Source: a virus. From it: DNA of 64,000 bases. The stretch covers positions 32,001-96,000 of IMG/VR virus record IMGVR_UViG_3300008954_000005. One strand, 5' to 3'. Below, one piece after another: positions 2,568 through 20,100 of the stretch (position 1 is the first letter of the stretch; every line of letters begins with the position of its first letter). The translations under genes were made by a program, and so were the position numbers. The notes beneath the pieces are model-generated. The model searched no databases, had not been told where the DNA came from, and saw only the letters and a program-made list of their open reading frames with translations.

Positions 2568-2930
2568 GTGGAGACATGGATGAAGGAAAAAGGAGACACG
2601 GTAGACTTACTGCCGTTTGCTCAGCAAGTTAATGCTTCTCTCCAGAAGCAGAGCAAAGTAAAAAGTACGCTATATGAAAACTGGTTGGTGGACATCTACT
2701 TTGGGCCTAGCCCTACAGCAGATGAAGAACTACCAAGACTAGGTTTTATCGCTTGTGCATCGACACAAGACAAAGAGGCTGGTCCTCTCCCCAACTTGAG
2801 TAACTCAAGTGGGGTGCGAGTAGACTTCGACGAGAAGTCGGTTGTGTGGTGGTCCGGTGACTCACTGGACGATTTAGAATCTAAAATCACAAACGCATTC
2901 CCAGAAATTACCTGGAATAGGGAGGACTAA
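2568..2930 (+). CDS. hypothetical protein
   Basis: 120 aa ORF whose stop overlaps the Ubl start (TAATG). Confidence 0.6.
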   Translation: METWMKEKGDTVDLLPFAQQVNASLQKQSKVKSTLYENWLVDIYFGPSPTADEELPRLGFIACASTQDKEAGPLPNLSNSSGVRVDFDEKSVVWWSGDSLDDLESKITNAFPEITWNRED

Positions 2931-3361
2931 TGTCCACAGAGAATCTTCAAGAACAGCTTGATTCAGCAATCAAGACCAGAGATGAACATGTTCAAAATAT
3001 GGGAGATGAATTCAGCCAAGCCAATATGGATCGGCTGTCTGCACTCCAGAAGGCCGTTGCATCCGCAAAGACTGCCTTGGAAACCGCCGCTGCTGCAGCG
3101 GCTGCTCCTGCGGTAGAGGGAAATACCGACCTTTGTGTCGTATCTCTAATCCGAAGCGGAAAAAGCGACCGGGTCGTCGAGGTTCCTACGGATACCTCGG
3201 TGAGCGACCTTATGAATACTCTTGGTTGGCCAACCAACGACTTCACGTTTAAGCGTCGAGTCGGCCCAGGCCAAACCGTAGAGATTACCAATCTTGCAGC
3301 CACCCTCGGTACAGGTGATCACGAAATCTTCGTATCACCTCGTGTTGCAGGAGGCTTCTAG
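2930..3361 (+). CDS. ubiquitin-like (beta-grasp) protein with N-terminal coiled coil, C-terminus ...VAGGF
   Basis: Helical N-terminus, poly-Ala linker, then a ~75 aa domain (VVSLIRSG..VVEVPTDTSVSDLM..L.TGDHEIFVSPRVAGG-F) ending in di-Gly plus one residue. Directly upstream of E2, JAB and E1. Confidence 0.8.
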   Translation: MSTENLQEQLDSAIKTRDEHVQNMGDEFSQANMDRLSALQKAVASAKTALETAAAAAAAPAVEGNTDLCVVSLIRSGKSDRVVEVPTDTSVSDLMNTLGWPTNDFTFKRRVGPGQTVEITNLAATLGTGDHEIFVSPRVAGGF

Positions 3362-3390
3362 ACTCTAGTCTAACTAGAGATTCCCTCCTT

Positions 3391-3431
3391 GGGGGTGGGG
3401 CTACTTCGGTAGCTTCACCCCCTTTTTATTT
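3391..3431 (+). terminator. intrinsic terminator after the Ubl gene
   Basis: GGGGGTGGGGCTAC-TTCG-GTAGCTTCACCCCC stem with a C(UUCG)G loop, followed by TTTTTATTT. Confidence 0.85.
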
Positions 3432-3444
3432 ACGGAGAATACCC

Positions 3445-4539
3445 ATGGCTTCAACAAGCAACACACAATGGGAATGGAGAGTTGACGACGACAGCGACAA
3501 TCTCGAATTCCTTCTATCTAAAATTATTGATGACTCCGTAGCCTCCTCCAAAGTCAACACAGTTGAACTGGAAACAGAGCTAGCAAAGCTCACAGCAAAA
3601 CGCACTGCTTGGGAGAGTAAGCTAACGCGGAGAAAGTCTATAGAGCAGTCTGTGCGAGAACGCCTAGAAAAACGACAAGTCGAACTCAGAAAAGCTCAAG
3701 ACGCCTTCCATAAAGCTAGGCAAAAAACTAGAGCAGTAGGCTACAAAGTTTCTCAGGCAGTTGAAGACTCAAGGGCTCTTAGTAATACCCTCGGACAGGA
3801 AAAGCTCTTTCTAGACAACTTCGCTGGTATCTACACAGAGGACGCCTTTAAGAACAGGGCCTTTATGGTGATGTCCCTGCGCGAGCGCATTGACTCATCT
3901 ATTCCCATCTCGTTCTCTCATGATAGAGACCAAAAGAAGATGCGGCTCTCGTGGGTCACTGGAGACATCTACATAAATAACTCCTTAGAGGGCGGTGTCT
4001 GGCCATTTAACTTTGGGCAGTACCGCGTAGAGGTCACCTTCAGCTATATGAACGGACATAGAGACGCCAGAGTGCTTATCCGTGGCCACCGAAGAAATAC
4101 CATTGTTTCAGGTGAGTACTTTCACCCGCATATCCGGAGCGATGGTACGGCCTGTCTAGGCAATGTCGCCAGGATGCTAATTGAGCACATGGCTAACCAA
4201 GACGTGGCCCAAGTCATTTGCACAGTTACGGAATATCTGTGTCACTACAACGAACAAGATCCGTACAGAAAACTGATGTTCTGGGGTGTAGCTAATCCTT
4301 ACGACCTCCCACACATCAACATGTACCAGTCTCACTTAGTGTTTGACTCAGGGCCAAAGAACCCCTGTGGCCTCTCACAATCTGACTGCATGGTTCAGCA
4401 TTTGACAGATAAAGCTGGGGAGTGCTCGTCGAGGAGCCTGCCCGCAGAGGTAGTTGTGACAGCAACATCCGTATATGAAAATCTTCAATCTTTTAGGGAG
4501 CGACTTAATGGCGAAGGTAACGAAGAAACCAACGGTTAG
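3445..4539 (+). CDS. prokaryotic E2/UBC-like conjugating enzyme with N-terminal coiled coil
   Basis: YFHPHIRSDGTACLGN matches the UBC HPN/H...G.xC.L active-site signature. Residues ~40-125 form a coiled coil. Confidence 0.8.
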   Translation: MASTSNTQWEWRVDDDSDNLEFLLSKIIDDSVASSKVNTVELETELAKLTAKRTAWESKLTRRKSIEQSVRERLEKRQVELRKAQDAFHKARQKTRAVGYKVSQAVEDSRALSNTLGQEKLFLDNFAGIYTEDAFKNRAFMVMSLRERIDSSIPISFSHDRDQKKMRLSWVTGDIYINNSLEGGVWPFNFGQYRVEVTFSYMNGHRDARVLIRGHRRNTIVSGEYFHPHIRSDGTACLGNVARMLIEHMANQDVAQVICTVTEYLCHYNEQDPYRKLMFWGVANPYDLPHINMYQSHLVFDSGPKNPCGLSQSDCMVQHLTDKAGECSSRSLPAEVVVTATSVYENLQSFRERLNGEGNEETNG

Positions 4540-5506
4540 GTTCAGTCAAAAAGCCTACCAACAAATGTTTGCGTTAACGAACGCGTGTAAAATCGAAATC
4601 AGTGCTATGGGTATTGTTGCTACTGCCGAACAAAAAGAAGACGCGGGTGTAACTGAAGACTTCTATGTAACTGAGTTCTTTGTCATTGATCAGGAGTGCA
4701 CAGGCACGTCAACTGATCTAGATGATGATGCAATGGTGGACCTTCTTATGAACCTGCGTGATCAGGGAATTAAGTCGGAGCAAATGTGTGTTTGGTGGCA
4801 TAGCCACGTAAACATGGCCACTGCTCACTCAGGAACAGATGAAGCCCAAATCGAAAGATTTGATTTCGACACAGTCTGCATCTCTATTATCACTAATAAG
4901 AAGGGTGAGCTAAATCTGCGCGTGGACATGTTCCAGCCGTTTAGACACACCTTCGAGAAGTGTGATTACGTTCTAGACTTCGTAGATATCCTCCCAGATA
5001 ACTGGGCTGAGGAGATGGTCGCCACTCATGTAAATGAGAAAAAGATCATCCCGCAGAGGCTCAACGTTGTGAAATCACGATCACGCGGAGTTGTCACCGG
5101 ATACGGTGGGAACTGGGGTGGTTGGAGTCGTTGGGAAGATGACGATGACGAGCGTAACGTGCTTGGGGCATCCACCACTAGTGGTCGTGAAATCGTTAAG
5201 TCCTCCGACCTACTGAAAGAAGGCGATGACGATGACCTCCCGGCATTTGACGCCCTCGATCTCCCAAAAGAATTGGGTCATCTACAAGACGCGTGGGATC
5301 TAAATCTGCTCGACACTCAGGACGTAATGGAACTCTTTGCGAGATGGTATGCAAAAGAGTTGAGTACAGAAGAAGTTGTCCAAGAGCTAGAGGAAACCCA
5401 CAACATCCTTGTAAGCGATTTAAAAGCTGGAGACGATGAGGATCCGGCTGATGCTGTCGTGGATACTGAAGTAGATGACCTGTTAACTTTTGGAGGTACT
5501 GCATGA
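4508..5506 (+). CDS. JAB/MPN+ metalloprotease (deubiquitinase-like) with acidic tail
   Basis: EISAMG (catalytic Glu) and WWHSHVNMATAHSGTD fit the JAMM HxH-x7-S-x2-D motif. ATG 4508 follows AGGGAG. Confidence 0.88.
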   Translation: MAKVTKKPTVRFSQKAYQQMFALTNACKIEISAMGIVATAEQKEDAGVTEDFYVTEFFVIDQECTGTSTDLDDDAMVDLLMNLRDQGIKSEQMCVWWHSHVNMATAHSGTDEAQIERFDFDTVCISIITNKKGELNLRVDMFQPFRHTFEKCDYVLDFVDILPDNWAEEMVATHVNEKKIIPQRLNVVKSRSRGVVTGYGGNWGGWSRWEDDDDERNVLGASTTSGREIVKSSDLLKEGDDDDLPAFDALDLPKELGHLQDAWDLNLLDTQDVMELFARWYAKELSTEEVVQELEETHNILVSDLKAGDDEDPADAVVDTEVDDLLTFGGTA

Positions 5507-6165
5507 TTGACACCACGAGGCAGTCTGGAATTATTCCAGACGACCGCCTCTCGGACGTGTCGGTAGCGATCATCGGTGTGGGGGCCATTGGCTCTCACAC
5601 CGTTGAGTCGCTCTCAAAAATGGGAATCCGACATTTTCATATATTTGATGATGACGTTGTAGAAGAACACAACCTAGCCAACCAAGGCTATTTCCTACCC
5701 GAAATCGGGTATAAGAAAGTTGAAGCCTTAGCTAATCGTATTTCGGTTGGAACTGGGGCGGAGGTTGTTGCTGACGCATGTCGAGTAGAAGACAACCACG
5801 ACTTTACGGAACGGTACGTAATCTCTGCTGTAGACAATATGGCCTCTCGAAAAAGCATTTTCGAATCATTCCTCAACAGCACCACATCCCGTTTCTTTTT
5901 GGATGGTCGTATGGCGGCTCGGTTCGGGCAAGTCTACTTCGTAGACAAACTCAAACCAGAAACCATCGAAAAGTATGAAAACAGCCTATTCAGTGATGAG
6001 GAAGCTGTTCCCCTGCCGTGCACGGAGAAGGCCACAATCTTCTGCGCGTATGGGATTGCGTCTTTTATGTCCGCTCTTATCGCAAAGAGCATTATCGAAG
6101 AGCCCATTAAGTTTATGTCTGCGGAACTAGATTTCGCAAACATACTCCTGATGCAAGCTCTTTAA
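5503..6165 (+). CDS. E1/ThiF/MoeB-family adenylating enzyme
   Basis: TRQ arginine finger, IIGVGAIG, FDDDVVEEHNLANQ, KVEAL, AVDN, LDGRM and candidate catalytic Cys in PLPCTEKAT. Confidence 0.92.
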   Translation: MIDTTRQSGIIPDDRLSDVSVAIIGVGAIGSHTVESLSKMGIRHFHIFDDDVVEEHNLANQGYFLPEIGYKKVEALANRISVGTGAEVVADACRVEDNHDFTERYVISAVDNMASRKSIFESFLNSTTSRFFLDGRMAARFGQVYFVDKLKPETIEKYENSLFSDEEAVPLPCTEKATIFCAYGIASFMSALIAKSIIEEPIKFMSAELDFANILLMQAL

Positions 6166-6215: not shown

Positions 6216-6959
6216 ATGGCGAATGACAAGCAGAAAAGTTGGACCACCGGTCTTCCTATGGAGGGCCTCATCAGCCCGTCTCGGGCACCCGATGTGATCA
6301 GCGTGGAATTCAACGGTACTACCACCAAGCTTCTGAAGCAGGTGGTAGCGAAGGATGAGGAGGGCACCGCCGTCTCCATCCGATACGTTGGAACACCTGT
6401 TGGTCCTGACGGGCGGTCCTGCCGCTTCGCAATGTCCATTGAAACAAATGGATTCGTGCGAGGCTCTGCGGCGATGAACTTCATCGCTGCGGGTGGTTGG
6501 GGTCGTGGTACGACTAAGCCCGATGAGGCTACCAAGCGTGAGAGCCGGAACAACTTCGTTCGTGGACTCATCACTAGCGCAATCGTCCATCAGGGTATGG
6601 ACAACAGCGCGGAGATGAAGTCCGTGATCGAACGGGAAACCGGCCTCACGGTTACTGACGGTGAGATGTCCCCAGAGGACAAGAACCTGTACGCTCTGTT
6701 GGGCGTTCGGGCGTACATCGTCACCTTGGCGGAAAGCCGGAACCTCAAGTTCTCGGTGGACCTCAAGAGCTTCATGGGCAAGGTGGTTCAGCCTACCTAT
6801 GCCGCCATCGTTGAGGGGGAGTGGGATGAGGAAAGTGACGAAGTCGCTCTCACCTCTGCTCTGAGCGAGGCTCACGTTCAACTGCTCACTGGTGCAGGCC
6901 TGAAGTTCCGCAAGGTTCGGAGGGCTCGTGGGGTGCAAAGGAAGACTCAGACCTCGTAG
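6216..6959 (+). CDS. hypothetical protein, probably highly expressed
   Basis: AAGGAGG RBS, GC3-rich codons and its own terminator. Last gene of the Ubl unit. Confidence 0.75.
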   Translation: MANDKQKSWTTGLPMEGLISPSRAPDVISVEFNGTTTKLLKQVVAKDEEGTAVSIRYVGTPVGPDGRSCRFAMSIETNGFVRGSAAMNFIAAGGWGRGTTKPDEATKRESRNNFVRGLITSAIVHQGMDNSAEMKSVIERETGLTVTDGEMSPEDKNLYALLGVRAYIVTLAESRNLKFSVDLKSFMGKVVQPTYAAIVEGEWDEESDEVALTSALSEAHVQLLTGAGLKFRKVRRARGVQRKTQTS

Positions 6960-7225: not shown

Positions 7226-8308
7226 ATGTCGATAAGGTTGATGAACACACGTGTTCCAGACCATATTCTTGTAAAAGGCGTGGTCACAAAAAGGTCTACG
7301 GCGTATTCAACCAACCTTTTCTGTGACCCAAACGACCCAGAAGAAACAGCTTACTTCGAAGATGAACTTACCCCGCTTGAAAAGGGTCACGTCTACCTTT
7401 GGAAAGAAGATGAATCTGGTGCAGTCTTAGTCCACATGCCATACAGAATTATGGATAAAGAAACTGGTTCCCTTCTGAAGGGTCTCAGTTCCTATAGGTC
7501 AATTGGGACTTTAATTGCTAGAAGCATACCCCAGAAAATGACTCTATCTCCAAAATCTTGCTTACAGGATTTTTTACTGAGCTATACCGATTTTAAAGTA
7601 TTCTCTCATAGAGTAGAGACCTTAGGGGGTACTACTGAAAAGGACTCAGTTGACCTAGAGCAGTTCCTGAAAGACATGCAGTACATCACTTCAGAAGCAA
7701 GTACCCTCCAAGCAAAAATAGGGACACTCAGGACAAAATACTGTATGTCTAGTTCAGAAGAATTATTGGACACAGAGGAAAAACTAAACGAAGTTCTTAG
7801 AGAGTTTGCCTGGGTAAGAGAAGAGATAACAGAGCTTGGTAACAAGCGGGTACTTATTGTTAAGAAGCTTGCCGCATTGAAGTGTGAAATCAATAGGACA
7901 ACTGACTATATCAGAGCTTCAGCGGAACAAGAGCAAGTACAAGAAGCCCTTAAGATGCTTAACCAAACCAACTTCGACAGAATTACCAGAGAAGCGATAC
8001 ACAAACACAATATCGATTCAGGCAGAGAACAGTCTACTGTGATACCTGCCCATATTGGTTCTCTGGCTAGCGCAATAGCGGAACTTAGAACGTACTACCC
8101 AGCCCTCACAAAGCTGACAGGTCATGGAGAGAACGTAGTCATAAGCCTCTCAGGTCTTAGGCTCATTCTTACACCAACTACCATAAAGGTAGAAGGAGAC
8201 CCATCAGTATTGAAGCCCTACATGGGTGAGGGCGCTACAGTAGACGCTTCCGGAAATGCTTCTCTTCGGAGAAGGAGGAGGAACATTGTACCAGATGTAA
8301 AGAAGTAA
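7226..8308 (+). CDS. coiled-coil hypothetical protein
   Basis: 360 aa, AAGGAGG RBS, long central heptad region. Confidence 0.75.
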   Translation: MSIRLMNTRVPDHILVKGVVTKRSTAYSTNLFCDPNDPEETAYFEDELTPLEKGHVYLWKEDESGAVLVHMPYRIMDKETGSLLKGLSSYRSIGTLIARSIPQKMTLSPKSCLQDFLLSYTDFKVFSHRVETLGGTTEKDSVDLEQFLKDMQYITSEASTLQAKIGTLRTKYCMSSSEELLDTEEKLNEVLREFAWVREEITELGNKRVLIVKKLAALKCEINRTTDYIRASAEQEQVQEALKMLNQTNFDRITREAIHKHNIDSGREQSTVIPAHIGSLASAIAELRTYYPALTKLTGHGENVVISLSGLRLILTPTTIKVEGDPSVLKPYMGEGATVDASGNASLRRRRRNIVPDVKK

Positions 8309-8429: not shown

Positions 8430-8513
8430 TTTTATTCCTAATGGAGAACCTACTACCGATGAATATTTATGCAGCGGTATTGAGAACAAAACCAACAAAT
8501 GGAGGTTATTACC

Positions 8514-9413
8514 ATGCAGCTTGAGCAGCAGGTATTCCCAATTGACAGCATCGAGCGAAATGTGCTCGGTTTCCGAAACAGTCGATCCGATGTTGGAGAT
8601 ACGCGAGAACTTCGCGCCTCCATCATTTCCGATGGGCTGCTAAACCCCCCAATCGTTCACGTTACTACAGATGAAGATGGTAATGAGAGAGTCCTTCTCA
8701 TTGCGGGCTATCGACGACTCCAGGCTATTCTGGATGAGCGGCAGGCTCGAAGTGAGGGGGAGGATGAAGAGGCTTTCTTCGAAGACATCGCATGCGGTGT
8801 CCACGTTGGATCTCTTGAGTCCGCTCTCGCCCTGAACATTGCAGAGAACCTGCAGCGTGAAACGCTAAACTTCGCAGATAAGTGTGAAGCCGTATTCCGA
8901 CTTAATGAGCGCATCGGTAATCAGCAAGAAGTTGCTGATATGCTGAACATCTCTCAGCCCCAGGTGAGCGTTCTTTGCTCCACCTACAAGGGACTGAGTA
9001 CTGTTGCGTTCGATTGTCTTCGGCACGGTCGAATCACCATGGGACAGGCTAAGAAGCTTGCCAAGGTGGTGAAGGCTGACGGTACTCCAGACGCTGGTCA
9101 GCAGGATGAAATCCTTGAACAGCTTCTGGGACAGGGTAAGGATGAGGTTCCTGACACTAAGCAGCGTCAGCGAGCTAAGACCTACCGCTCGAAGAAGGAA
9201 GTCGAAGAGCTTCGTACCGCTCTTGCAAACGACGAAACCGGACTGGATCAGGAGCACAAGGACGCGGCGACCCGCTTCGTTCAGTGGTACTTCTGCGAAA
9301 TCGATACTGATGAACTCATTCATCGTATTGATGCGGTCGAAGAGGTTACGGTCGAAGATAAGCCCACCAAGAAGACGATTAAGCGTAAGCGTCGTATTCG
9401 GGTAGGTGACTAA
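8514..9413 (+). CDS. parB: ParB/Spo0J-family protein
   Basis: ELRASI..DGLLNPPIV, LIAGYRRLQA (GxRR box), ENLQRETL, and HTH QQEVADMLNISQPQVS. ATG 8514 follows GGAGG. Confidence 0.88.
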   Translation: MQLEQQVFPIDSIERNVLGFRNSRSDVGDTRELRASIISDGLLNPPIVHVTTDEDGNERVLLIAGYRRLQAILDERQARSEGEDEEAFFEDIACGVHVGSLESALALNIAENLQRETLNFADKCEAVFRLNERIGNQQEVADMLNISQPQVSVLCSTYKGLSTVAFDCLRHGRITMGQAKKLAKVVKADGTPDAGQQDEILEQLLGQGKDEVPDTKQRQRAKTYRSKKEVEELRTALANDETGLDQEHKDAATRFVQWYFCEIDTDELIHRIDAVEEVTVEDKPTKKTIKRKRRIRVGD

Positions 9414-11006
9414 ATGAACCGGAGCGTCGAAGAACTCGACGTTCTCATTAGGGCTGCGCACCCGGTGATCTTTGTGGTTAGCCATGAAGAACATCGGGTT
9501 GCGCAAGCTCTTCATGAGATTGTTGAGCGCAAAAATAAAAGTTCAGAGGCTAACGCCTCTCTGTGGACATGGTCTATGACCGATGGAGCCTACTGCGGCG
9601 ACGAAAACTTCACAGATTTAGACGGTCCTCTTGAGATTCTTGAGCATATCGGAAAGTACGAAAAATCCGGTGTCTTTATGTTGAAGGACTTCGCGTATTT
9701 CCTGAATGAAGGCCCTGCCTATCTTGTTCAAAGAAAACTACGCGACCTCACGTCAGCTATGGGGCATGGAATTTCCATCGTAATTGTGGATAGTGAGTTA
9801 AACATCCCACCCCGTCTTGAGAAGCTTATGACCGTTGTGGACTTCGACCTCCCAACAGCACAAGAACTTGAGAGCTACACGGCGTGGGTAGTTAAGGACC
9901 ACCTAGGTAAGCAGAAGGACGTACCCCAAATTCATGAGGACGCCTGTAATGCTGCCGTAGGCCTTACTGCTACAGAAGTTGAAAACGTCTTCTGTAAGTC
10001 GCTCGCTAAAAATAGCACGCTTGATCCTAAAGTGATCATGGAAGAGAAGAAGCACATCATTCGTAAGTCTGGGGTGCTTCAGTACCATGACGTAGATAGG
10101 GATATGGCTGATGTAGGTGGACTCGCAACCCTTAAGGGATGGGTCAACCAACGAGGTCGGGCGTTCACCTCCAAGGCTAGAGAGTATGGTCTTCCACACC
10201 CAAGAGGAGCCCTCATTGTGGGAATTCCGGGTACTGGTAAATCCTTGATTGCAAAGTGTATCGGCGCATCATGGAAGATGCCGGTGCTGCGTATGGATGT
10301 GGGCGCTTTGTTCGGACAGTTTGTCGGGCAGTCAGAAGCAAATATGCGGAAGGCCCTGAAGACTGCGGAAGCTCTAGCTCCCTGTGTATTGTGGATTGAT
10401 GAACTCGAAAAGGGTTTTGGTAGTGCGGGTGGTGGGGGTGCTCACGATAGCGGAACCTCTGCCCGTGTGTTTGGTAGCTTCCTATCTTGGATGCAGGAGA
10501 AAACTTCTCCTGTATTCGTAGTTGCTACCGCAAATGACGTAAGCCAACTTCCACCAGAGATGCTTAGAAAAGGAAGATTTGACGAATTGTTTTTCGTAGA
10601 CCTTCCAAATGAAGCAGACAGGAAGGAAGTATTCCGTATCCACATTAGCAGGCTGGGGAGAGACCCAGACATGTTTGATCTCGGTGATCTTGTCAAACTC
10701 ACGAACGGTTTTACCGGCGCTGAGATTGAGCAAGTGATCGTTGACGGTTTATTCTTGGCCTTTGATGAGGACAGGGAACCAACCCTAAATGATTATTCAA
10801 TTGCTGCTGCTAGGACAGTCCCAATCTCCAAAACAATGGAGAAGAAGATTGAAGCTCTTCGTGGCTGGGCAAATGGTCGTGCTCTCATGGCCAATGAGTC
10901 TGACAAGCGAAAGAACGCTCCTACAAGCAGAGCGGCCAAGCGTGAAGGACGAGTCAAGCCAACAACAGGCTCTGACTGGTCCGGTCTGAAGAAGAAGGCA
11001 AATTGA
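9414..11006 (+). CDS. Ycf46-like AAA+ ATPase (FtsH/Cdc48 clade)
   Basis: DVGGL..LK, Walker A GIPGTGKS, Walker B LWIDELEK, ATAN, LRKGRFDELFFVDLP. Degenerate N-terminal AAA domain (VSHEEHR, LKDF). Confidence 0.9.
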   Translation: MNRSVEELDVLIRAAHPVIFVVSHEEHRVAQALHEIVERKNKSSEANASLWTWSMTDGAYCGDENFTDLDGPLEILEHIGKYEKSGVFMLKDFAYFLNEGPAYLVQRKLRDLTSAMGHGISIVIVDSELNIPPRLEKLMTVVDFDLPTAQELESYTAWVVKDHLGKQKDVPQIHEDACNAAVGLTATEVENVFCKSLAKNSTLDPKVIMEEKKHIIRKSGVLQYHDVDRDMADVGGLATLKGWVNQRGRAFTSKAREYGLPHPRGALIVGIPGTGKSLIAKCIGASWKMPVLRMDVGALFGQFVGQSEANMRKALKTAEALAPCVLWIDELEKGFGSAGGGGAHDSGTSARVFGSFLSWMQEKTSPVFVVATANDVSQLPPEMLRKGRFDELFFVDLPNEADRKEVFRIHISRLGRDPDMFDLGDLVKLTNGFTGAEIEQVIVDGLFLAFDEDREPTLNDYSIAAARTVPISKTMEKKIEALRGWANGRALMANESDKRKNAPTSRAAKREGRVKPTTGSDWSGLKKKAN

Positions 11007-11875
11007 GTCGCGGGCGGCATCATACTGGAATAATCCAGCTAGACGAATTTCTTCAGGGAGGTCTTCCTTCGGGTATCTGCGAAGTTATCGGGGAAGACGC
11101 GAGTGGGAAATCTACGTTGGGGTTTAGTGTGATGAGGGAGGCCTCTTTAAGGGGCCTCCCAACCGCCTTGATTCATACGGAAGGGTATCCCGATAAAGGG
11201 TATATCCGTAGGTCCGGTCCAACCGAATGCTTAGTTAGTGTACCTACTAACGCCGAAGCAGCTATCGAATCTGCCCACGTTTCCCTCCTTAGTGGGTGTG
11301 TGATCGTAGTGATCGATTCTCTTTCGGCTGCTGAGTCTGTATGCGATCAGGCTCAAGTTGTCGGTGACCGTGTCCCTTTCGCTGCTAGGAAGATGGCTTA
11401 CCATGGCCTTAGTATCCTCCGAGAAGAAGCCTTAAAAAGAAACGCATTGGTGCTGGTCGTGAATCAGCTAAGAACGCCTATCCAATCCCTAGTGCCCACA
11501 CCCTGTTCCTCATTTGAGGGGACTATAAACAGGTTGTGTGCCGTGCGGATAAGGACCGTTAGAGAAACCACCAGAAATGAGTATGGGGAGCTTGCCTACC
11601 TAAAGGTGCGGTTCAACATCTATCGCTCATTGGTTTCTCCCCCAAGTGACAGAGCCTACGGATTTCTCTTTAATCAAAAAGGGTTTTGTCGGGGCTTCGA
11701 ACTTATGCGTGCTCTATTATCGGCTAATATACTAGACCAAAAAGGCGCATACCTTATCGGTCAAGATGGCAAATCGCTAGGCCCTGGGTATCTAGGTGCC
11801 GCAGAGCAAATCAATAAAAATTTTGAACACTATCGGAGGATCTACGATGATCGAAGTCAAAGTAGTAGTCCATGA
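11003..11875 (+). CDS. divergent RecA-like ATPase
   Basis: TGIIQLDEFL.GGLPSG, EVIGEDASGKST (Walker A), VVIDS (Walker B), VNQLR. Confidence 0.75.
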   Translation: MSRGRHHTGIIQLDEFLQGGLPSGICEVIGEDASGKSTLGFSVMREASLRGLPTALIHTEGYPDKGYIRRSGPTECLVSVPTNAEAAIESAHVSLLSGCVIVVIDSLSAAESVCDQAQVVGDRVPFAARKMAYHGLSILREEALKRNALVLVVNQLRTPIQSLVPTPCSSFEGTINRLCAVRIRTVRETTRNEYGELAYLKVRFNIYRSLVSPPSDRAYGFLFNQKGFCRGFELMRALLSANILDQKGAYLIGQDGKSLGPGYLGAAEQINKNFEHYRRIYDDRSQSSSP

Positions 11876-12032
11876 AGACGGAACCGTTGAGACCGAGGTT
11901 AATGGCGTAAAGGGAAAGGGTTGTACCCAGTACACAAACGCTGTAATCAAGGCCTTGGGCGGTGAAGTAGTCAAGGATGAAAAGAAACAAGAGTATTATG
12001 AGTCCGAGTCTACCTCTGTGAAGAGTAGATGA
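11847..12032 (+). CDS. DUF2997-family protein
   Basis: EDGTVETEVNGVKGKGC...ALGG...K.EYY signature. GGAGG RBS. Confidence 0.8.
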   Translation: MIEVKVVVHEDGTVETEVNGVKGKGCTQYTNAVIKALGGEVVKDEKKQEYYESESTSVKSR

Positions 12033-12616
12033 GGATCCATAGAGTTACCTACGGAAGTCGTGTAAACGGCCCCGGTGTAAGAACAGTTCTACATACACAG
12101 GGATGCACAATAGGCTGCGCCGGTTGTTTCAATGCACACACCTGGGATGCCGACAAAGGCGACGAACTCACGGTAGATACCGTTATTGAACTGCTTCTGT
12201 CCGACATTAAGGACGGAGTGACTATTTCTGGTGGAGAGCCCACCGAGCAATGGGAAGAGCTACACGTAGTTCTTCAAAGACTTAAAGACGTAGGCCACAG
12301 TGTGGTCCTATTTACAGGACTAACCAAAGCCCAACTAGAAGAACGTGAGATCTGGAAAGATCTTCAGAGCCTAACCGATATCCTTATCGTTGGGCCATAT
12401 GACAGAACAAAACATATACAAAGTGAACCTTTAAGAAGCTCCTCTAATCAGGAAGTCTTCTTCTTCTCAGAATACACATCTGATGATCTAGAATCCGTAC
12501 CGGAAATCGAAGTACACGTTGACGGGGATACCGTCACCATTGCTGGGTTTCCTACTAAACCAATAAGAACAACTCTCTTACGAGAGTTAAAGGAGGGCGC
12601 ATGTCGCACCTTGTAA
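12029..12616 (+). CDS. radical SAM protein, NrdG-like
   Basis: NGPGVR..L.TQGCTIGCAGCFN (CxxxCxxC), GVTISGGEP, SSNQ. Confidence 0.85.
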   Translation: MRIHRVTYGSRVNGPGVRTVLHTQGCTIGCAGCFNAHTWDADKGDELTVDTVIELLLSDIKDGVTISGGEPTEQWEELHVVLQRLKDVGHSVVLFTGLTKAQLEEREIWKDLQSLTDILIVGPYDRTKHIQSEPLRSSSNQEVFFFSEYTSDDLESVPEIEVHVDGDTVTIAGFPTKPIRTTLLRELKEGACRTL

Positions 12617-13020
12617 GTTGTAAGTCCTGTATGAAGGACAAAGATGCCGTACTCTCCGCTCTTAGTAAGCTAGGGGTTCCCGCAGAACTGATTCAAGTAG
12701 CGCAAGATGGCCAAACCCTGGACCTCCAAGGTTACATGCGTGGCCACACTGCGAAAGTGGATATCCTTGTGGATAGATCTTTTCACGGCGGATACGGACC
12801 TTTTGGTTTTTCCAAGAGTGAGGACGGAACATATCAAGTTCACGTAGACGATATGGATGACCGTGGCGCACTAGCTGCGAAGACTAAGACTAGTACATTT
12901 TCCACTGGAGTAAGTCAGTGGTACAGCGCTCTGAAAGCCCAGAGAGCCTTAAAGAAGCAAGGTCTCTCCACCAAAATCAAGCAAGAAGGGCAAAAGCTGG
13001 TGGTTTTGGCTAAGGGATAA
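12601..13020 (+). CDS. DUF1257 (Ycf35-like) protein
   Basis: MSH start, L..AL..LG, GF...DG.Y, Q.Y, and adjacency to the AAA ATPase and DUF2997. Confidence 0.75.
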   Translation: MSHLVSCKSCMKDKDAVLSALSKLGVPAELIQVAQDGQTLDLQGYMRGHTAKVDILVDRSFHGGYGPFGFSKSEDGTYQVHVDDMDDRGALAAKTKTSTFSTGVSQWYSALKAQRALKKQGLSTKIKQEGQKLVVLAKG

Positions 13021-17156: not shown

Positions 17157-20100
17157 TTACACGTAAATCGTGATTTTGATGTAGTTGGCCGGGTAAAACG
17201 GCACGATTGTTACTTCTGCCTGAATGGTATCAGGGTTCTCCGAGTCCTGGATAAGGGAGTCAAGACTAGCTTCGGCAACAACCGACCCAGTCACACTCGC
17301 CAATGCTCCCTGCATACCCAGGGAAACTGCTTCTAAAAGCTGCTTTGTAATGTTGTTACGTCCAATAAATTTCTTGACCTGTCCACGAAGCAGTTTAGCT
17401 ACGTAGTCTACAGCTTTAAGAATAGACAACTCCCTGGTCTTCAACGAAGAGACGTCTGTGGTCAATTGGTGTCTTGACACACAAGGAGCCCCAGGAACAT
17501 CCTGGATAACCCAATAAATACCGCCAGCGGCTGCAGTAGCCATAGCGTTCTCACTAAACAGATCATTCGAACCAATCGGACGGGTGAACCCAACCATCGG
17601 TAGGTTGGTGAACGGTTGTGACGGATTCTGTTGTCCAATCATCGCAGCAACACCAGCGGCTAGGTAGTAGCCAGGGACCAAAGTCTCTAGACCACCAACA
17701 GAAACCGCACACTGGTCAGGCTGCATCATAATCAGTCGACGATTCTGGAACCCAGTTACGCCGCCAGCGATTTCAGCAAGAGTCTCGCAAGTCTCCAACT
17801 TCCCACCAGTGGACGAGTTGTCCAGAGCGGCCTGTCGAACAAAGACACTACCCGCTTCGGGTACATCTGTGATGTCTTCAGGGGCAGCTTCGTTGTAGTA
17901 GGAATCCTCGTTACCCGATGTTGCAGGGCCGTAGACACCGGCTTGGTAAATATCATCCGTCTCTAGAATGATAGTCGTATCGGTCTCTCCATCGAGAAGA
18001 CCAACGACCAAGTACCGGAAAGCGTCACCCTCACGGTCAAAGTAAACACCGTCAGCAGGGTCAAAGGCTTGCGTCGGATCTAGTCCCTCACCAGCAGCGT
18101 TCGAAATCGAACTATCAGCAAGAGCCAAGAAGACGTTTTTACCGGAGTCTTGGAGAGTGGCCGTGTACTGGGTACCCGACTTGTGCTCGATAACCCAATC
18201 ACCAGAGATGGCTAGACCCGAAGGCTTCTCAGTGGGTAGCTCGGGACAAGTAAGGGCCATACGCTCTTTCTTAGCGGTAGGCGCAGACATGTCCGTTACA
18301 TGCTGATTGAAAACCTTGATGACTTCCATATCGTGGGTGAGGGGCGCAAGTGCGTATACCTCTTTCAACTGTAGGAAATCGAGGGCTTCAGCGTAGGCCT
18401 TGACGGTACCCATCGGGGCATCGTCAGTAGTCGCAGAGATCCCGATAGCCGAAACATTGATATTAGTCGTGTTCAAGAACGCGAGGTACATACCAAAGGC
18501 AAGCGGGTTCGCAGGGTCAATCGGACCAATCGTGGACTCAACCTCAGCAATACTATTAAAGGTTAATAATCCGGGATTGGCTGCTGCACCAGTCACGTCC
18601 TTACGGAGAGCTTTATAATCAACGTAGATGTCAGCGCTTCCGGAAGATGCGATACCAGCGGCGTCGCGGTTCAAACCACCCTTGATTGTGTAAGACTGCT
18701 CAAGATCGTTTCCAGAGCCCTCGGGCTGAATGCTGCGGTCAGTGGCGACCGTATCATCATCAAGACCCTCGGCAGTAAGATACCAAGTACTAAGGTTGTC
18801 CTTGTTATCAACAGTCAGGTCATCAAGAACCAGCATGGCTCCAGTGAACGAAGACGCTGGGGTCGACAAGTTCTCCTGACCAACGACAAGACCTAGAGCG
18901 GTCCCATTGTCATACAGCCGGTCTGCAAGAGCGGTCGAGTTACTAGCACCGTGGAAGATCCGACTCGTATAGCTAGACGCTGCAGCCTTCGCCGCAGACG
19001 CCCAAGCACGCTTGTAGGTAATATCCCAAGTAGTGGAGGTCGTGAATCGGAACACAATGGGCTCAGCGGTCTGGGAGTTTCCAGCATTTTCATCGCCAGA
19101 GAAGCACAGGCTGATTTGTCCCGTTGAGTACGCGATACGGCTCATAGCCTTACCGGTATTTGCGGTTACCCCGCCGTCAAAGCACCAATCAGTGAATGCA
19201 TCTGACGAGGGCGCGTTGACCACATGCGATAGGGAGTTGGAGATGGAGTAGATCTCCATTCCATAATCACCAGCGCCGTTGTCTTTAAGAACCACATCAA
19301 CCGCAACAGACGTTGAGGTGTTCGCCGCATCATCGGTGGCGTCGGTACCAGTATCCGACAACCCGAGCCAAGCAAGTAGCGCAGCATCGGTATCAGCAAG
19401 TACAGCGATTGCGTCACCCACAGCAGGCGCACCGTTGTGGAAGAGAACAATCTCTCCAGCGTGATTACAGGCTTCGACACCCGTTCCATCAAGAGCGCCA
19501 GGGGCATTAAGAATGGTTACACAGTCATCGATGTCGGCCTCGGCACCACCCACAGTTACTGTGAGTTCTGCAGAAGCTGCACCATCTACAGAGATGTAGA
19601 GGGAGTAGGCACCCGCTGCTGGGATGTTGGCAACCGCAGCATCCTCGCAACGAATTGCGGGAACAGCAGTGAGGCTACCAAGCGCGATGGTTTGGCCCCC
19701 AGGCTGAAGCGCCTTCTGCATGACAGAGGTTACCGCTGTGGACCCCATCATGTTGTAGTCGCTAGAATCAAGCTGCGCTCCACGACCATTGGCCATCGAA
19801 GCAGAGCCGGAGTTTACGAGGTCGGTAAGCTGACCAGCACTAAAGGTGCCCGTCTTGTTTCCTTCCAGGGCACCAGACCACAGATTGTAAATAGCAGCCG
19901 CGCTACTCATGCTCATTTCAAGCATGGAGTCAGCGCCATCGTTAGAGTCCGTCTTAATCCGTAGAGGAGCGAAGGTTTCACCAATCTCGTTAGCAAGGTT
20001 GTAGCCAAGAACACTGGCTTCACCATCATCGAGAAGAGCGGTGATTACCGTCGCAGGAACATCTGTTGCCGCGAAGGTATGGGAAACAGCCGTTCCACCA

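What the first reader, a model, noticed from the sequence alone, without database searches (positions are those of the whole stretch)
2930..6165. Complete phage-encoded ubiquitin-like conjugation cassette (Ubl, E2, JAB, E1)
Seen in sequence: four adjacent genes, all with apparently intact catalytic residues. They are a beta-grasp protein ending VAGG-F, an E2 with HPH..G..C, a JAMM protease and an E1/ThiF with a candidate catalytic Cys. The single Phe after GG means the Ubl needs trimming before activation, which is a job for the neighbouring JAB. Established: bacterial Ubl/E1/E2/JAB operons exist, and some conjugate Ubl to phage virion proteins as defence. No ThiS/MoaD sulfur-transfer partners (ThiG, MoaE, rhodanese) are in the window, and an E2 argues for protein conjugation. 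Inference: here the phage carries the pathway among its early genes. It may tag host or phage proteins, jam or reverse host Ubl-based immunity, or exclude competing phages.
Basis: partly seen in the sequence, partly recalled or inferred. Interest (0 to 1): 0.92.

Follow-up and report, generated by a model that had tools for sequence, protein, structure and literature searches.

The report
Phage-encoded ubiquitin-like tagging cassette
A large uncultured tailed phage carries four adjacent genes for a ubiquitin-like tag, a protease that trims it, an enzyme that activates it and a classical-type enzyme that transfers it; the same kit recurs in dozens of phages, what it tags is unknown, and such machinery has so far been studied only as a bacterial defence against phages.

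Summary
The window is part of a 155.7-kb myovirus-like IMG/VR record. At 2930-6165 it encodes four proteins.
- Ubl (143 aa): the beta-grasp fold is confirmed, and the family profile matches the archaeal modifier SAMP2 at E 9e-11. It ends VAGG-F.
- E2-like protein: carries HPHIxxxGxxC. A trimmed 53-sequence profile hits only eukaryotic UBC E2s in the PDB.
- JAMM protease: has the full E...HSHx7SxxD motif.
- Minimal 220-aa ThiF-type E1: has an invariant PCT cysteine.

The cassette is syntenic in relatives. GG is invariant and the residues after it vary (0-5). An E1-anchored survey found E2+JAB+E1 together in 49 of 70 viral loci and 14 of 16 MAG loci. GG-tailed small ORFs are about 20-fold enriched just upstream of the E2. 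The whole phage record holds no sulfur-transfer partner, integrase or resolvase.

The most likely reading is a phage-run Ubl-protein conjugation cascade. Its targets and role are unknown.

It fails the membership tests for Bil, PRTRC, Bub and CBASS, so I class it as a new variant of a known kind. No paper describing it was found. This scan has noted similar cassettes on other DNA before. The E2 3D model was poor and the complex predictor was closed, so biochemistry remains untested.

The parts
2568..2930 (+). 120-aa protein of unknown function. Its stop overlaps the Ubl start (TAATG). It is conserved upstream of the Ubl in the close phage clade. It may be associated with the cassette but is not part of the universal core.
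   Evidence: overlap, AGGGAGGA Shine-Dalgarno. Synteny in L002-L009. No Pfam, PHROG or NCBIfam hit.
2930..3361 (+). Ubl precursor. It has an N-terminal two-helix hairpin (res 3-57), an Ala-rich linker, and a beta-grasp domain (res 68-137). It ends V-A-G141-G142-F143.
   Evidence: AlphaFold model, with pLDDT about 85 in the beta-grasp. The Foldseek top hits are all Ubl domains, SUMO, ubiquitin or MoaD. The family profile A12 matches SAMP2 5lda_B at E 8.9e-11 end to end. GG is invariant and the tails vary.
3391..3432 (+). Intrinsic-terminator-like hairpin between the Ubl and E2 genes: 14-bp GC-rich stem, UUCG loop, T-run. It is read as an attenuator that gives more tag than enzymes.
   Evidence: It is conserved, with sequence changes, in 4 of 4 close relatives at z -3.8 to -6.5. 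Hairpin plus T-run passes a strict rule in 9 of 31 distinct Ubl-E2 gaps, and more pass by eye.
3445..4539 (+). E2-like conjugating enzyme. It has an N-terminal coiled coil of about 125 aa, a UBC-like core (about res 135-300) with H227-P-H229 and candidate catalytic C237, and a C-terminal C308/C315/H319/C327 cluster.
   Evidence: Motif is invariant in 56 relatives. The trimmed profile A10 hits only UBC E2s in the PDB, best E 0.0036, with alignments up to profile positions 3-136 against Ubc13 residues 17-142. Pfam UQ_con is sub-threshold at the motif and appears in 9 of 56 relatives. ESM Atlas structural neighbours include Prok-E2_D and UQ_con clusters. The 3D model was poor, pLDDT 52.
4508..5506 (+). 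JAB/JAMM (MPN+) metalloprotease. The N-terminal catalytic domain is about 190 aa, followed by an acidic, variable C-terminal half. The longest ORF starts at 4475, but the probable start is 4508.
   Evidence: The E41, H109-S-H111, S119 and D122 motif is invariant. PDB Rpn11 scores E 4e-4 over the motif region. Pfam Prok-JAB is sub-threshold. Start site.
5503..6165 (+). Minimal single-domain ThiF-type E1 (220 aa). It has G25xG27xxG30, D49, K72, D111 and R116, and candidate catalytic Cys173 in an invariant P-C-T motif. Its start overlaps the JAB stop.
   Evidence: Pfam ThiF at 9.8e-22. PDB UBA5, MccB, TcdA and Cap2. Residue census in 86 relatives.
6216..6959 (+). 247-aa protein of unknown function directly after the E1. 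It is conserved in that position in the close clade and, weakly, in L010. It could be a partner or a target.
   Evidence: Alignment A7. HMM hits in 18 loci. The only ESM Atlas neighbours are unnamed Uroviricota clusters. No family hit.

Best explanation
This is a virus-owned ubiquitin-like protein-conjugation pathway.

Inferred mechanism:
1. The Ubl is made as a precursor. It is probably made in excess, because a conserved terminator hairpin separates its gene from the enzyme genes.
2. The JAMM protease removes Phe143 and exposes Gly142.
3. The minimal ThiF-type E1, presumably a homodimer like MoeB/ThiF, adenylates Gly142 and takes the Ubl onto Cys173 as a thioester.
4. The Ubl passes to Cys237 of the E2. 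This E2 keeps the classical HP(N/H)-x-x-x-x-G-x-x-C active-site loop.
5. The E2 has no separate E3. It probably selects targets through its own coiled-coil N-terminus and Cys/His-rich tail, and transfers the Ubl to target lysines.
6. The JAMM enzyme can probably also reverse the mark.

What is shown here: gene content, folds and motifs, conservation, and genomic distribution. Every chemical step is inferred from the families involved.

Biological role. The cassette sits in the non-structural arm with replication and recombination genes, in a phage with no integrase or resolvase in 87% of its genome. The same E2-JAB-E1 block is fixed in many unrelated phage lineages. I therefore think the phage uses it during its own infection cycle to modify host or phage proteins, for takeover or counter-defence. 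I do not think it is defence cargo. That part is a guess, at about 50% within this explanation.
For: - All four ORFs are intact with catalytic residues.
- Ubl beta-grasp model and Foldseek hits.
- The Ubl family profile matches SAMP2, a proven protein modifier, at E 8.9e-11. SAMP2 was solved bound to a JAMM protease (5lda).
- GG is invariant, with variable 0-5-residue tails after it. One relative ends exactly at GG.
- The E2 core profile hits only UBC enzymes, with the HPN/Cys loop and the downstream NP..P motif aligned. H-P-H...C is invariant in 56 relatives and present in nearly all E2-like neighbours of JAB-E1.
- E1 and JAB catalytic residues are kept in 83-86 of 86 and 75 of 75 relatives.
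- E2+JAB+E1 co-occur in 49 of 70 viral and 14 of 16 MAG loci anchored on the E1.
- GG-tailed small ORFs are enriched about 20-fold upstream of the E2, p = 8e-18.
- The whole 155.7-kb record has no rhodanese, MoaE, ThiG, PP-loop ATPase or cysteine desulfurase, while the controls were positive.
- No integrase or resolvase.
- The gene order Ubl-E2-DUB-E1 equals that of BilABCD, for which conjugation was shown biochemically (10.1101/2023.09.26.559546).
Against: - No biochemistry exists.
- The AlphaFold model of the E2 is poor in the catalytic region (pLDDT below 50 for res 223-323). The UBC fold therefore rests on modest E-values (0.004-0.04), though the hit list is exclusively E2s.
- E2 and JAB fall below Pfam gathering scores.
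- The E1 is much smaller than Bil or eukaryotic E1s. It lacks the CxxC zinc site and any separate Cys domain, so thioester formation at C173 is an assumption.
- SAMP2/ThiS-type Ubls also serve as sulfur carriers in cells. The host could supply the sulfur enzymes.
- crAss001 and FpV4 have the JAB-E1 pair, but the gene beside it is not recognisably an E2. An E2 may therefore not be essential to the wider system.
- Targets and timing of expression are unknown.
Confidence: 0.7

Rival explanations
1. The chemistry is the same, but the role is the opposite. The cassette is defence cargo: a Bil-like system carried by the phage to tag virion proteins of competing phages, giving superinfection exclusion or protecting a carrier-state host.
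For: The only bacterial Ubl-E2-JAB-E1 operons with a shown function, Bil, are anti-phage and tag a tail protein (10.1101/2023.09.04.556158). The gene order is the same. Phages often carry defence systems. A ParB gene lies 2.3 kb downstream and could fit a plasmid-like carrier state.
Against: There is no integrase or resolvase in 87% of the genome. The module is fixed at one position beside replication genes across deep phage lineages rather than sitting in variable islands. No PADLOC defence model hits the Ubl, E2 or JAB. The E1 and E2 differ in architecture from Bil.
Confidence: 0.13
2. The Ubl is activated by the E1 without a working E2. In one version it acts as a sulfur carrier, thiocarboxylated for tRNA or cofactor thiolation as ThiS, MoaD and SAMP2 can be. 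In another it is conjugated E2-independently as in archaeal sampylation. The 'E2' would then be an adaptor or have another role.
For: The Ubl profile is closest to SAMP2, MoaD and ThiS. The best curated E1 hit is ThiF. Archaeal SAMPs need only an E1 and a JAMM protease. crAss001 and FpV4 carry JAB-E1 beside a protein that my E2 profile does not recognise.
Against: The Cys and HPH loop of the E2-like protein are invariant across about 60 diverged relatives, which indicates a catalytic function. The phage record has no rhodanese, cysteine desulfurase, PP-loop thiolase, MoaE or ThiG. In the Xanthomonas jumbo phage PhiXhv-16 the E2 domain is kept next to a GG-ended Ubl and the E1, although no JAB was seen.
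Confidence: 0.1
3. It is the phage counterpart of the plasmid/ICE PRTRC cassette (ParB-related, ThiF-related). It would work with the nearby ParB in establishing or maintaining the incoming DNA, with the Ubl chemistry serving that task.
For: Among plasmids, almost all tblastn hits of the E1 are 'PRTRC system ThiF family protein'. PRTRC in pMOL28 reads ParB-E-C(74 aa)-F-B-A-ThiF. Protein A carries HSHx7SxxD, and protein B carries an ...HGRICIG... segment that aligns weakly with the E2 Cys loop. A ParB gene is syntenic with the cassette in the close phage clade. A Bacteroidetes copy lies in an ICE-like context (TraG/VirD4, methylase, DUF932).
Against: NCBIfam PRTRC models are far below cut-off: ThiF 60.5 against 144.75 bits, and ParB 33.3 against 278.6. 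There are no hits at all to PRTRC proteins A, B, C, E or F. ParB is near the E1 only in the close clade, 10 of 86 loci. PRTRC itself has no known function, so this reading names a relative rather than a mechanism.
Confidence: 0.07

Closest known systems
Bil (BilABCD, Types I and II), bacterial anti-phage Ubl conjugation (Hor et al. 10.1101/2023.09.04.556158; Chambers et al. 10.1101/2023.09.26.559546)
   Same: Four separate genes in the order Ubl-E2-JAB-E1. In some systems the Ubl is made with a short tail after the C-terminal Gly and is trimmed by the JAB. A Cys-based E1-to-E2 relay is expected. A few Bil and Bub Ubls also carry an N-terminal coiled coil (PMC11601603).
   Different: BilD is a multidomain E1 of about 500 aa (IAD+AAD+CYS, with a zinc site). 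Here the E1 is one 220-aa ThiF domain. Type II BilB is a 'CEHH' E2 without the HPN loop, whereas this E2 keeps HPH/HPN and matches eukaryotic UBCs best. This cassette is encoded by a phage, not by a defence island. No PADLOC hit to the Ubl, E2 or JAB.
PRTRC cassette of plasmids and ICEs (NCBIfam TIGR03734-TIGR03742), function unknown
   Same: A small protein C, an E2-like protein B, a JAB protein A and a ThiF in the same relative order, with a ParB-family gene in the neighbourhood. The ThiF is the nearest plasmid relative of this E1. Both are carried by mobile elements.
   Different: All PRTRC models fail their cut-offs or do not hit. PRTRC protein B lacks the HPH motif. Protein C does not end in GG plus a short tail. 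There are no protein E or F equivalents here. The ParB link is clade-specific.
Archaeal sampylation (SAMP1/2, E1 UbaA, JAMM1)
   Same: The Ubl family profile matches SAMP2 end to end at E 8.9e-11 (5lda, SAMP2 bound to a JAMM protease). It also matches SAMP1, MoaD and ThiS. Both use a single-domain ThiF-type E1 and a JAMM protease that acts on the Ubl.
   Different: Sampylation has no E2, and this cassette has one with an invariant Cys. SAMPs double as sulfur carriers with cellular partners that are absent from this phage.
Eukaryote-type and Caldiarchaeum-type E1/E2/(RING) cascades (PMC5654768)
   Same: The E2 active-site loop has the same spacing, (Y/F)-H-P-N/H-(I/V)-x3-G-x2-C-L, and the same downstream (Y/P)N-x-x-(D)P motif. 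Eukaryotic UBCs are the only PDB hits of the E2 profile. The JAB matches Rpn11 best.
   Different: No RING E3 was found; the Cys-rich E2 tails match no RING model consistently. The E1 has no Cys or UFD domains. The Ubl is SAMP2/ThiS-like rather than ubiquitin-like in sequence.
Bub operons (Types I/II; PMC11601596) and Type II CBASS Cap2/Cap3
   Same: They share E1, E2, JAB and Ubl-like logic in prokaryotic conflict systems. The E1 Rossmann part hits Cap2 models.
   Different: Bub works through Ser oxyesters, has an E1 without a catalytic Cys, uses fused BubAB/BubCD proteins and includes a DUF6527 protease. Cap2 is an E2-E1 fusion that conjugates a CD-NTase rather than a Ubl. Here the genes are separate, Cys is conserved in both enzymes, and there is a dedicated GG-ended Ubl.
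Lambda/T1 tail assembly proteins I and K (Ubl plus JAB-NlpC/P60; Iyer et al. 2006, PMC1779556)
   Same: This is the only previously described phage-encoded pairing of a Ubl that ends in Gly with a JAB peptidase.
   Different: It has no E1 and no E2. It lies in the tail module and has an assembly role. The present cassette lies in the non-structural arm and has the full activation and transfer set.

Membership tests
Ubiquitin-like beta-grasp modifiers (ThiS/MoaD/SAMP clade) | beta-grasp fold | tested here: met
   AlphaFold model with strand and helix order b-b-a-b-b-b and pLDDT about 85. 75 Foldseek PDB hits at E<=1e-3; all the listed top hits are Ubl, SUMO, ubiquitin or MoaD.
Ubiquitin-like beta-grasp modifiers (ThiS/MoaD/SAMP clade) | C-terminal Gly-Gly at or near the end, conserved | tested here: met
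   G141 and G142 are the only invariant columns in 29 family members. Tails after GG are 0-5 residues.
Ubiquitin-like beta-grasp modifiers (ThiS/MoaD/SAMP clade) | Sequence-family membership (Pfam ThiS/SAMP2) | tested here: inconclusive
   The window protein alone gives no Pfam hit. 8 of 29 relatives hit ThiS and 5 of 29 hit SAMP2. One relative is above the ThiS cut-off. The family profile hits SAMP2 at E 8.9e-11.
UBC/E2 superfamily | Catalytic Cys 7-8 residues after an HPN-type loop | tested here: met
   The motif HPHIRSDGTAC is present. P228, H229, C237 and G239 are invariant in 56 relatives. The motif occurs in nearly all E2-like neighbours of JAB-E1, once as HPN.
UBC/E2 superfamily | UBC fold / homology to known E2s | tested here: inconclusive
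   For: the trimmed profile A10 hits only E2s among the best 60 PDB sequences, at E 0.0036-0.04, covering up to the whole core. Against firm proof: Pfam UQ_con scores 14.5 bits against a cut-off of 27. The AlphaFold model has pLDDT 52. The structure search was swamped by the coiled coil.
ThiF/MoeB/E1 adenylating enzymes | Pfam ThiF above cut-off, with the nucleotide-binding GxGxxG and the Asp/Arg/Lys of the adenylation site | tested here: met
   77.7 bits against 28.1. G25, G27, G30, D49, K72, D111 and R116 are kept in 85-86 of 86 relatives.
ThiF/MoeB/E1 adenylating enzymes | Catalytic cysteine that forms the E1~Ubl thioester | not testable with these tools
   The candidate is C173, in a P-C-T motif kept in 83 of 86 relatives. 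It lies in the region after the last Rossmann strand, where MoeB, ThiF and UBA5 carry their loop cysteine (placement from my own knowledge of those proteins). Chemistry is untested.
JAMM/MPN+ metalloproteases | E...HxHx7SxxD zinc site | tested here: met
   E41, H109, H111, S119 and D122 are present. The four motif residues are kept in 75 of 75 relatives. Rpn11 scores E 4e-4. Pfam Prok-JAB is below cut-off, 15.3 against 25 bits.
Bil (BilABCD) | Gene order Ubl-E2-JAB-E1 as separate genes | tested here: met
   compared with the order given by Chambers et al..
Bil (BilABCD) | Multidomain E1 (inactive plus active adenylation domains and a mobile Cys domain) | tested here: not met
   The E1 is 220 aa, a single ThiF domain covering residues 14-208. 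BilD architecture comes from 10.1101/2023.09.26.559546.
Bil (BilABCD) | Recognition by defence-system models | tested here: inconclusive
   PADLOC-DB v2 gave no hit for the Ubl, E2 or JAB. It gave only CBASS E1-E2 models for the Rossmann part of the E1. I did not verify which Bil models that release holds.
PRTRC cassette | NCBIfam PRTRC ThiF (TIGR03736) and ParB (TIGR03734) above cut-off | tested here: not met
   60.5 against 144.75 bits, and 33.3 against 278.6 bits.
PRTRC cassette | PRTRC proteins A, B, C, E and F present | tested here: not met
   No NCBIfam hit on any neighbour at E<=1. My profiles against the pMOL28 proteins gave only JAB against protein A at E 0.006, and a weak local match of the E2 Cys loop to protein B.
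Bub operons | Ubl-E2 and JAB-E1 (or E2-E1) fusions, an E1 without a catalytic Cys, and Ser-based E2 chemistry | tested here: not met
   The genes are separate, and Cys is conserved in both the E1 and the E2. Bub features come from PMC11601596 and PMC11601603.
Type II CBASS Cap2/Cap3 | E2-E1 fusion protein acting on a CD-NTase | tested here: not met
   The E2 and E1 are separate genes, with a dedicated Ubl upstream. The presence of a CD-NTase elsewhere in the genome was not searched.

The most novel reading that the evidence does not exclude
Tailed phages of many lineages run their own ubiquitin-like protein-conjugation system during infection. The lineages include 175-182-kb myoviruses such as this one, a Xanthomonas jumbo phage and, in reduced JAB-E1 form, crAss-like and Flavobacterium phages. 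The system is built from a SAMP2-like tag, a minimal E1, a JAMM protease and an E2 with the classical eukaryote-type active site. It tags host or phage proteins to take over the cell or disarm immunity. This would be a viral counterpart of, and possibly an evolutionary source or sink for, cellular ubiquitin-type signalling.
Probability: 0.45. Interest if true: 0.9.

Novelty: new variant of a known kind. Interest (0 to 1): 0.74.

Why it matters
Ubiquitin-like conjugation in bacteria has only recently been shown, and only as host defence against phages (Bil, CBASS Cap2, Bub). A complete cascade owned by the virus reverses that picture. Phages, like eukaryotic viruses, may write post-translational marks on host or viral proteins.

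The family is large. There are 600 E2-like relatives at E<=1e-3 in 1.8 billion representative proteins, and dozens of phage contigs carry the full set. Cultured phages carry reduced versions annotated only as 'thiamine biosynthesis protein' or 'hypothetical'.

The E2 is closer to classical eukaryotic UBCs than the characterised bacterial E2s are. It is paired with the smallest kind of E1. This makes it a compact model for the minimal requirements of E1-E2 transfer, and it bears on how ubiquitin-type cascades were assembled from ThiS/SAMP-type parts.

Cultured relatives make the question experimentally tractable: Xanthomonas phage PhiXhv-16, crAss001 and FpV4.

Tried and rejected
- Nucleotide search of 50,697 GenBank phages with the cassette found no match. 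tblastn with the E2 also found none.
- The search for related loci with the single E2 found nothing.
- Full-length E2 profiles against the PDB returned only coiled-coil proteins. This was solved by trimming to the core.
- The AlphaFold model of the full E2 was poor (pLDDT 52). A VIA-align wide search with it matched only long helices, so it says nothing about the core.
- Ten distant E2-profile hits were scanned against Pfam in the hope of a transitive link to named E2 families. None gave one.
- I tested whether the Cys-rich tails of the E2 family are RING E3 domains. One weak Prok-RING_1 hit appeared among 56. No family recurred among 39 tails. The idea is not supported, and the tails are only 'probably zinc-binding'.
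- I tested whether ParB is a general partner, as in PRTRC. ParB lies within 6 kb of the E1 in only 10 of 86 loci, all from the close clade.
- crAss001 gp78 and FpV4 gp52, the genes upstream of JAB-E1, are not recognised by the E2 profiles and lack the HPH..C motif.
- Four to five literature searches for a described phage-encoded Ubl cascade found none in the held library. Subscription-only papers are not covered.

Full report
**Where the window lies.** The window is bases 32001-96000 of a 155,722-base linear IMG/VR virus record that CheckV estimates as 87% complete. It encodes a large terminase, a major head protein, a head protease and a protein with a tail-sheath domain on the minus strand. 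Helicases and a DnaB-like helicase lie on the plus strand. It is therefore a large myovirus-like phage. No tRNA lies in the window. The whole record has no tyrosine integrase or serine recombinase.

**The observation.**
- Ubl: 2930-3361, 143 aa, ending SPRVAGGF.
- E2-like: 3445-4539, 364 aa, with YFHPHIRSDGTACLGN.
- JAB: ORF 4475-5506. Orthologues begin at MAKV and an AGGGAG ribosome-binding site precedes the ATG at 4508, so 4508 is the likely start.
- E1: 5503-6165, 220 aa.

The Ubl start overlaps the stop of an upstream 120-aa gene (TAATG). The JAB overlaps the E2 end, and the E1 start overlaps the JAB stop.

**The E1.** Pfam ThiF scores 77.7 bits against a cut-off of 28.1. The closest solved relatives are UBA5, MccB, TcdA and Cap2. 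The best curated families are ThiF, PRTRC ThiF and the 6A-MBL Cap2-like protein, all below their cut-offs. It is one Rossmann-type domain with no CxxC zinc site and no extra Cys or UFD domain. In 86 relatives the following are kept in 83-86 cases: GxGxxG, D49, N57, Q61, K72, D111, R116, R136 and a cysteine in a P-C-T motif (C173). A second cysteine, C181, is not kept. C173 is therefore the candidate thioester site. Its equivalence to the loop cysteine of MoeB, ThiF and UBA5 is inferred from position and from my knowledge of those enzymes, and was not tested.

**The JAB.** The full JAMM signature is present: E41, H109-S-H111, S119, D122. It is invariant in 75 relatives, apart from E41 where ORF starts are cut. 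A four-sequence profile hits Rpn11 at E 4e-4 across the motif region. Pfam Prok-JAB is sub-threshold. The C-terminal half is acidic and variable.

**The Ubl.**
- An AlphaFold model built on four orthologues gives two N-terminal helices (3-23, 30-57), a disordered Ala-rich linker, and a beta-beta-alpha-beta-beta-beta domain (68-137) with pLDDT about 85.
- Foldseek against the PDB returns 75 hits at E<=1e-3. The listed top hits are Ubl domains of TBCE and USP7, SUMO, ubiquitin, Caldiarchaeum ubiquitin and MoaD.
- In seven phages of the clade, V-x-G-G is invariant. What follows is F, SD, SLQ, NR, N, C or nothing.
- A wider alignment of 29 Ubls found next to E2-JAB-E1 sets has only two invariant columns, the two glycines.
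- That profile matches SAMP2 of Pyrococcus end to end, including the terminal GG. The structure is 5lda chain B, solved with its JAMM protease, at E 8.9e-11. It then matches PF1061, Haloferax SAMP2, MoaD, SAMP1 and ThiS.
- Eight of the 29 hit Pfam ThiS and five hit SAMP2.
- The N-terminal helical extension is specific to the window's clade. Most family members are 65-90 aa.

**The E2.**
- The single sequence gives only a weak Pfam UQ_con hit (E 0.027), exactly at the active-site region: residues 224-276 against model positions 69-119.
- A word-based search found just eight close relatives. A full HMM search of 1.84 billion representative proteins with their profile found 600 at E<=1e-3 and 74 at E<=1e-10.
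- In 56 of these, down to 18% identity, P228, H229, C237, G239 and Y268 are invariant and H227 is nearly so.
- The full-length AlphaFold model was poor (mean pLDDT 52, below 50 for 223-323). Its secondary-structure order (helix, strands, loop, helices) fits a UBC core. Structure search with it saw only the coiled coil.
- I therefore cut the core domain out of 53 phage and MGE homologues by reference and searched the PDB. All 60 best sequences shown are ubiquitin-conjugating enzymes (UbcH5, UbcH7, Ubc13, Rad6-type and others), with best E 0.0036.
- The alignments put Y-d-H-P-H-i-x3-G-x-p-C-l-G on Y-H-P-N-I-x3-G-x-I-C-L, and the later L-x-s-Y-N-p-e-d-P-Y on L-x-d-P-N-p-d-D-P. They reach the whole core in some cases, for example profile positions 3-136 against Ubc13 residues 17-142.
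- ESM Atlas structural neighbours of the Atlas's own model are three Uroviricota clusters, then a Prok-E2_D cluster and a UQ_con-bearing cluster. These are leads only.
- I take the E2 assignment as well supported by sequence and unproven by structure.
- The protein also has an N-terminal coiled coil of about 125 aa and a clade-invariant C308/C315/H319/C327 cluster. Half of the family (33 of 67) have tails with four or more cysteines. These tails match no Pfam zinc-finger family consistently.

**Conservation and distribution.**
- Orthologous cassettes lie in the same place in metagenomic phage contigs of 148-184 kb, with E2 identity of 46-53%. The order is SLT lysozyme, 120 aa, Ubl, E2, JAB, E1, 247 aa, 360 aa, ParB, AAA ATPase, RecA-like, DUF2997, radical SAM.
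- The same holds in more distant contigs where E2 identity falls to about 20%.
- Anchoring on the E1 instead, IMG/VR gave 70 loci and the species-genome collection gave 16. With my own HMMs on six-frame ORFs, 49 of 70 viral loci and 14 of 16 MAG loci have E2-like, JAB and E1 together. They are mostly in the order E2-JAB-E1 and sometimes E2-E1-JAB. Eleven viral loci and one MAG locus have JAB+E1 only.
- In 30 of 63 loci with an E2, a small ORF (median 78 aa) with GG in its last six residues ends within 250 nt upstream of the E2. Such ORFs are 25 of 59 there against 30 of 843 elsewhere (Fisher p = 8e-18). The tails after GG are 0 to 3 residues.
- One MAG copy lies in a 4.5-Mb Bacteroidetes chromosome next to a TraG/VirD4-type coupling protein, a DNA methylase and DUF932. 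This is an ICE-like setting. Its 72-aa Ubl passes the Pfam ThiS cut-off.

**Cultured relatives.**
- tblastn with the E1 finds 84 GenBank phage records. They include crAss-like phages (crAss001, DAC15/17, PhiCrAssBcn), Flavobacterium psychrophilum phages (FpV1-4 and others), and 227-229-kb Xanthomonas and Erwinia phages. All are annotated 'thiamine biosynthesis protein' or hypothetical.
- crAss001 has gp77 (JAB, HSHNNMATFFSGTD) next to gp76 (E1 with a 150-aa N-terminal extension). FpV4 has gp51 (JAB) next to gp50 (E1). In both, the upstream gene is not recognised by my E2 profiles.
- Xanthomonas phage PhiXhv-16 has a 140-aa protein ending ...KASGG. It is followed by an 892-aa protein with an E2 core (A10 profile E 1.2e-9, IHPHM...GSLCLG) and a very Cys-rich tail, then the E1. 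No JAMM motif was seen in the adjacent genes I translated.

**Regulation.** A 14-bp GC-rich hairpin with a UUCG loop and a T-run lies between the Ubl and E2 genes, 13 nt before the E2 start. No promoter-like site follows it. Equivalent hairpins, with different loop and stem sequences, occur in all four close relatives at z-scores of -3.8 to -6.5. They also occur in at least 9 of 31 distinct Ubl-E2 gaps by a strict rule, and in more by eye. This fits partial termination, giving much more tag than enzymes. That is an inference.

**Against a sulfur-carrier role.** The whole 155.7-kb record has no rhodanese, MoaE, ThiG, PP-loop ATP_bind_3 or class-V aminotransferase. Each search was positive in 11-14 of 14 control genomes. 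Host enzymes could still be used, and SAMP2-type proteins do both jobs in archaea. This rival therefore keeps some weight. The invariant Cys and HPH loop of the E2 argue for transfer to protein.

**Comparison with known systems.**
- The gene order is that of BilABCD. However, BilD is a multidomain E1, the Type II BilB E2 lacks the HPN loop, and PADLOC models do not hit.
PRTRC ThiF and ParB models hit at 60.5 and 33.3 bits, far under their cut-offs of 144.75 and 278.6. Proteins A-F do not hit.
- Even so, nearly all plasmid tblastn hits of the E1 are PRTRC ThiF at 25-31% identity. The pMOL28 operon reads ParB-E-C-F-B-A-ThiF, with a JAMM motif in protein A and an E2-like Cys segment in protein B.
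- PRTRC is therefore a distant analogue and probably a distant relative. This cassette is not a member of it. The ParB link holds only in the window's own clade.
- Bub (oxyester chemistry, fused proteins) and CBASS Cap2/Cap3 (E2-E1 fusion, no Ubl) differ in defining features.
- The Ubl, E1 and JAMM trio is closest to archaeal sampylation, and the E2 is closest to classical UBCs.

**Literature and earlier notes.** Searches of the held library found Bil, Bub, CBASS, the 2006 survey (which reports only the lambda/T1 tail Ubl plus JAB in phages) and ThiF homologues in Asgard viruses. They found no description of a phage-encoded Ubl-E2-JAB-E1 cascade. Other agents of this scan have reported similar cassettes on other genomes. 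Those are unchecked notes, and I did not count them as evidence.

**Verdict.** The cassette is a new variant of a known kind. It is an MGE- and phage-borne lineage of ubiquitin-like conjugation systems that combines a SAMP2-like tag, a minimal E1, a JAMM protease and a classical-motif E2. Its targets and purpose are open.

Noticed in passing
window 3391-3432: A strong terminator-like hairpin (14 bp, UUCG loop, T-run) lies between the Ubl and E2 genes. It is conserved with compensatory sequence differences in relatives and recurs in many distant Ubl-E2 gaps. It probably sets a high tag-to-enzyme ratio.
   Followed up: yes
window 4475-4510: The longest JAB ORF starts at 4475. Orthologues start at the residue encoded at 4508, which has an AGGGAG ribosome-binding site 7 nt upstream. 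The JAB then overlaps the E2 3' end by 32 nt.
   Followed up: yes
window 4366-4425 (E2 residues 308-327): A clade-invariant C-x6-C-x3-H-x7-C cluster follows the UBC-like core. Half of the wider E2 family carries much richer Cys tails (8-25 Cys, many CxxC) that match no known zinc-finger family consistently.
   Followed up: partly
window 6216-6959 and 7226-8308: Two proteins of unknown function follow the E1 in fixed order in the whole clade: 247 aa, and 360 aa with a coiled-coil middle. The 247-aa protein has only unnamed Uroviricota neighbours in the ESM Atlas. They could be partners or targets of the cassette.
   Followed up: partly
window 8499-13020: A tightly packed block lies directly downstream and is syntenic with the cassette in related phages: ParB-family protein, AAA ATPase (530 aa), RecA-like protein, DUF2997 and a radical-SAM protein. 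The ParB gives weak sub-threshold hits to the PRTRC ParB model.
   Followed up: partly
window 17157-21554 (minus strand): A 1465-aa protein whose last 175 or so residues match a tail-sheath PHROG. This is unusually long for a sheath protein.
   Followed up: no
L044:60-6663 (IMGVR_UViG_3300033150_000701): Three to four tandem E2-like paralogues, at least three with the H-P-H...C motif, precede a single JAB-E1 pair. This looks like diversification of the conjugating enzyme within one phage. L035 carries two JAB-E1 sets, and L094 carries two E2-like genes.
   Followed up: no
L099:1236-5112 (Xanthomonas phage PhiXhv-16, PV764603.1): A cultured 229-kb phage has a 140-aa protein ending exactly in GG, an 892-aa protein with an E2 core and a Cys-rich tail, and the minimal E1. 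No JAMM motif was seen in the adjacent genes. This is a natural case where no trimming would be needed.
   Followed up: partly
L097:2028-5699 (crAss001 gp78-gp76) and L098:2051-5121 (FpV4 gp52-gp50): crAss-like and Flavobacterium phages keep a JAB-E1 pair in their replication modules, annotated 'metalloprotease' and 'thiamine biosynthesis protein'. The 420-444-aa gene upstream is not recognisably an E2.
   Followed up: partly
L084:3834-6633 (Bacteroidetes chromosome OY969888.1): The same Ubl-E2-JAB-E1 set sits beside a TraG/VirD4-type coupling protein, a DNA methylase and DUF932. The module therefore also travels on conjugative elements. DUF932 and a methylase also flank PRTRC in pMOL28.
   Followed up: partly
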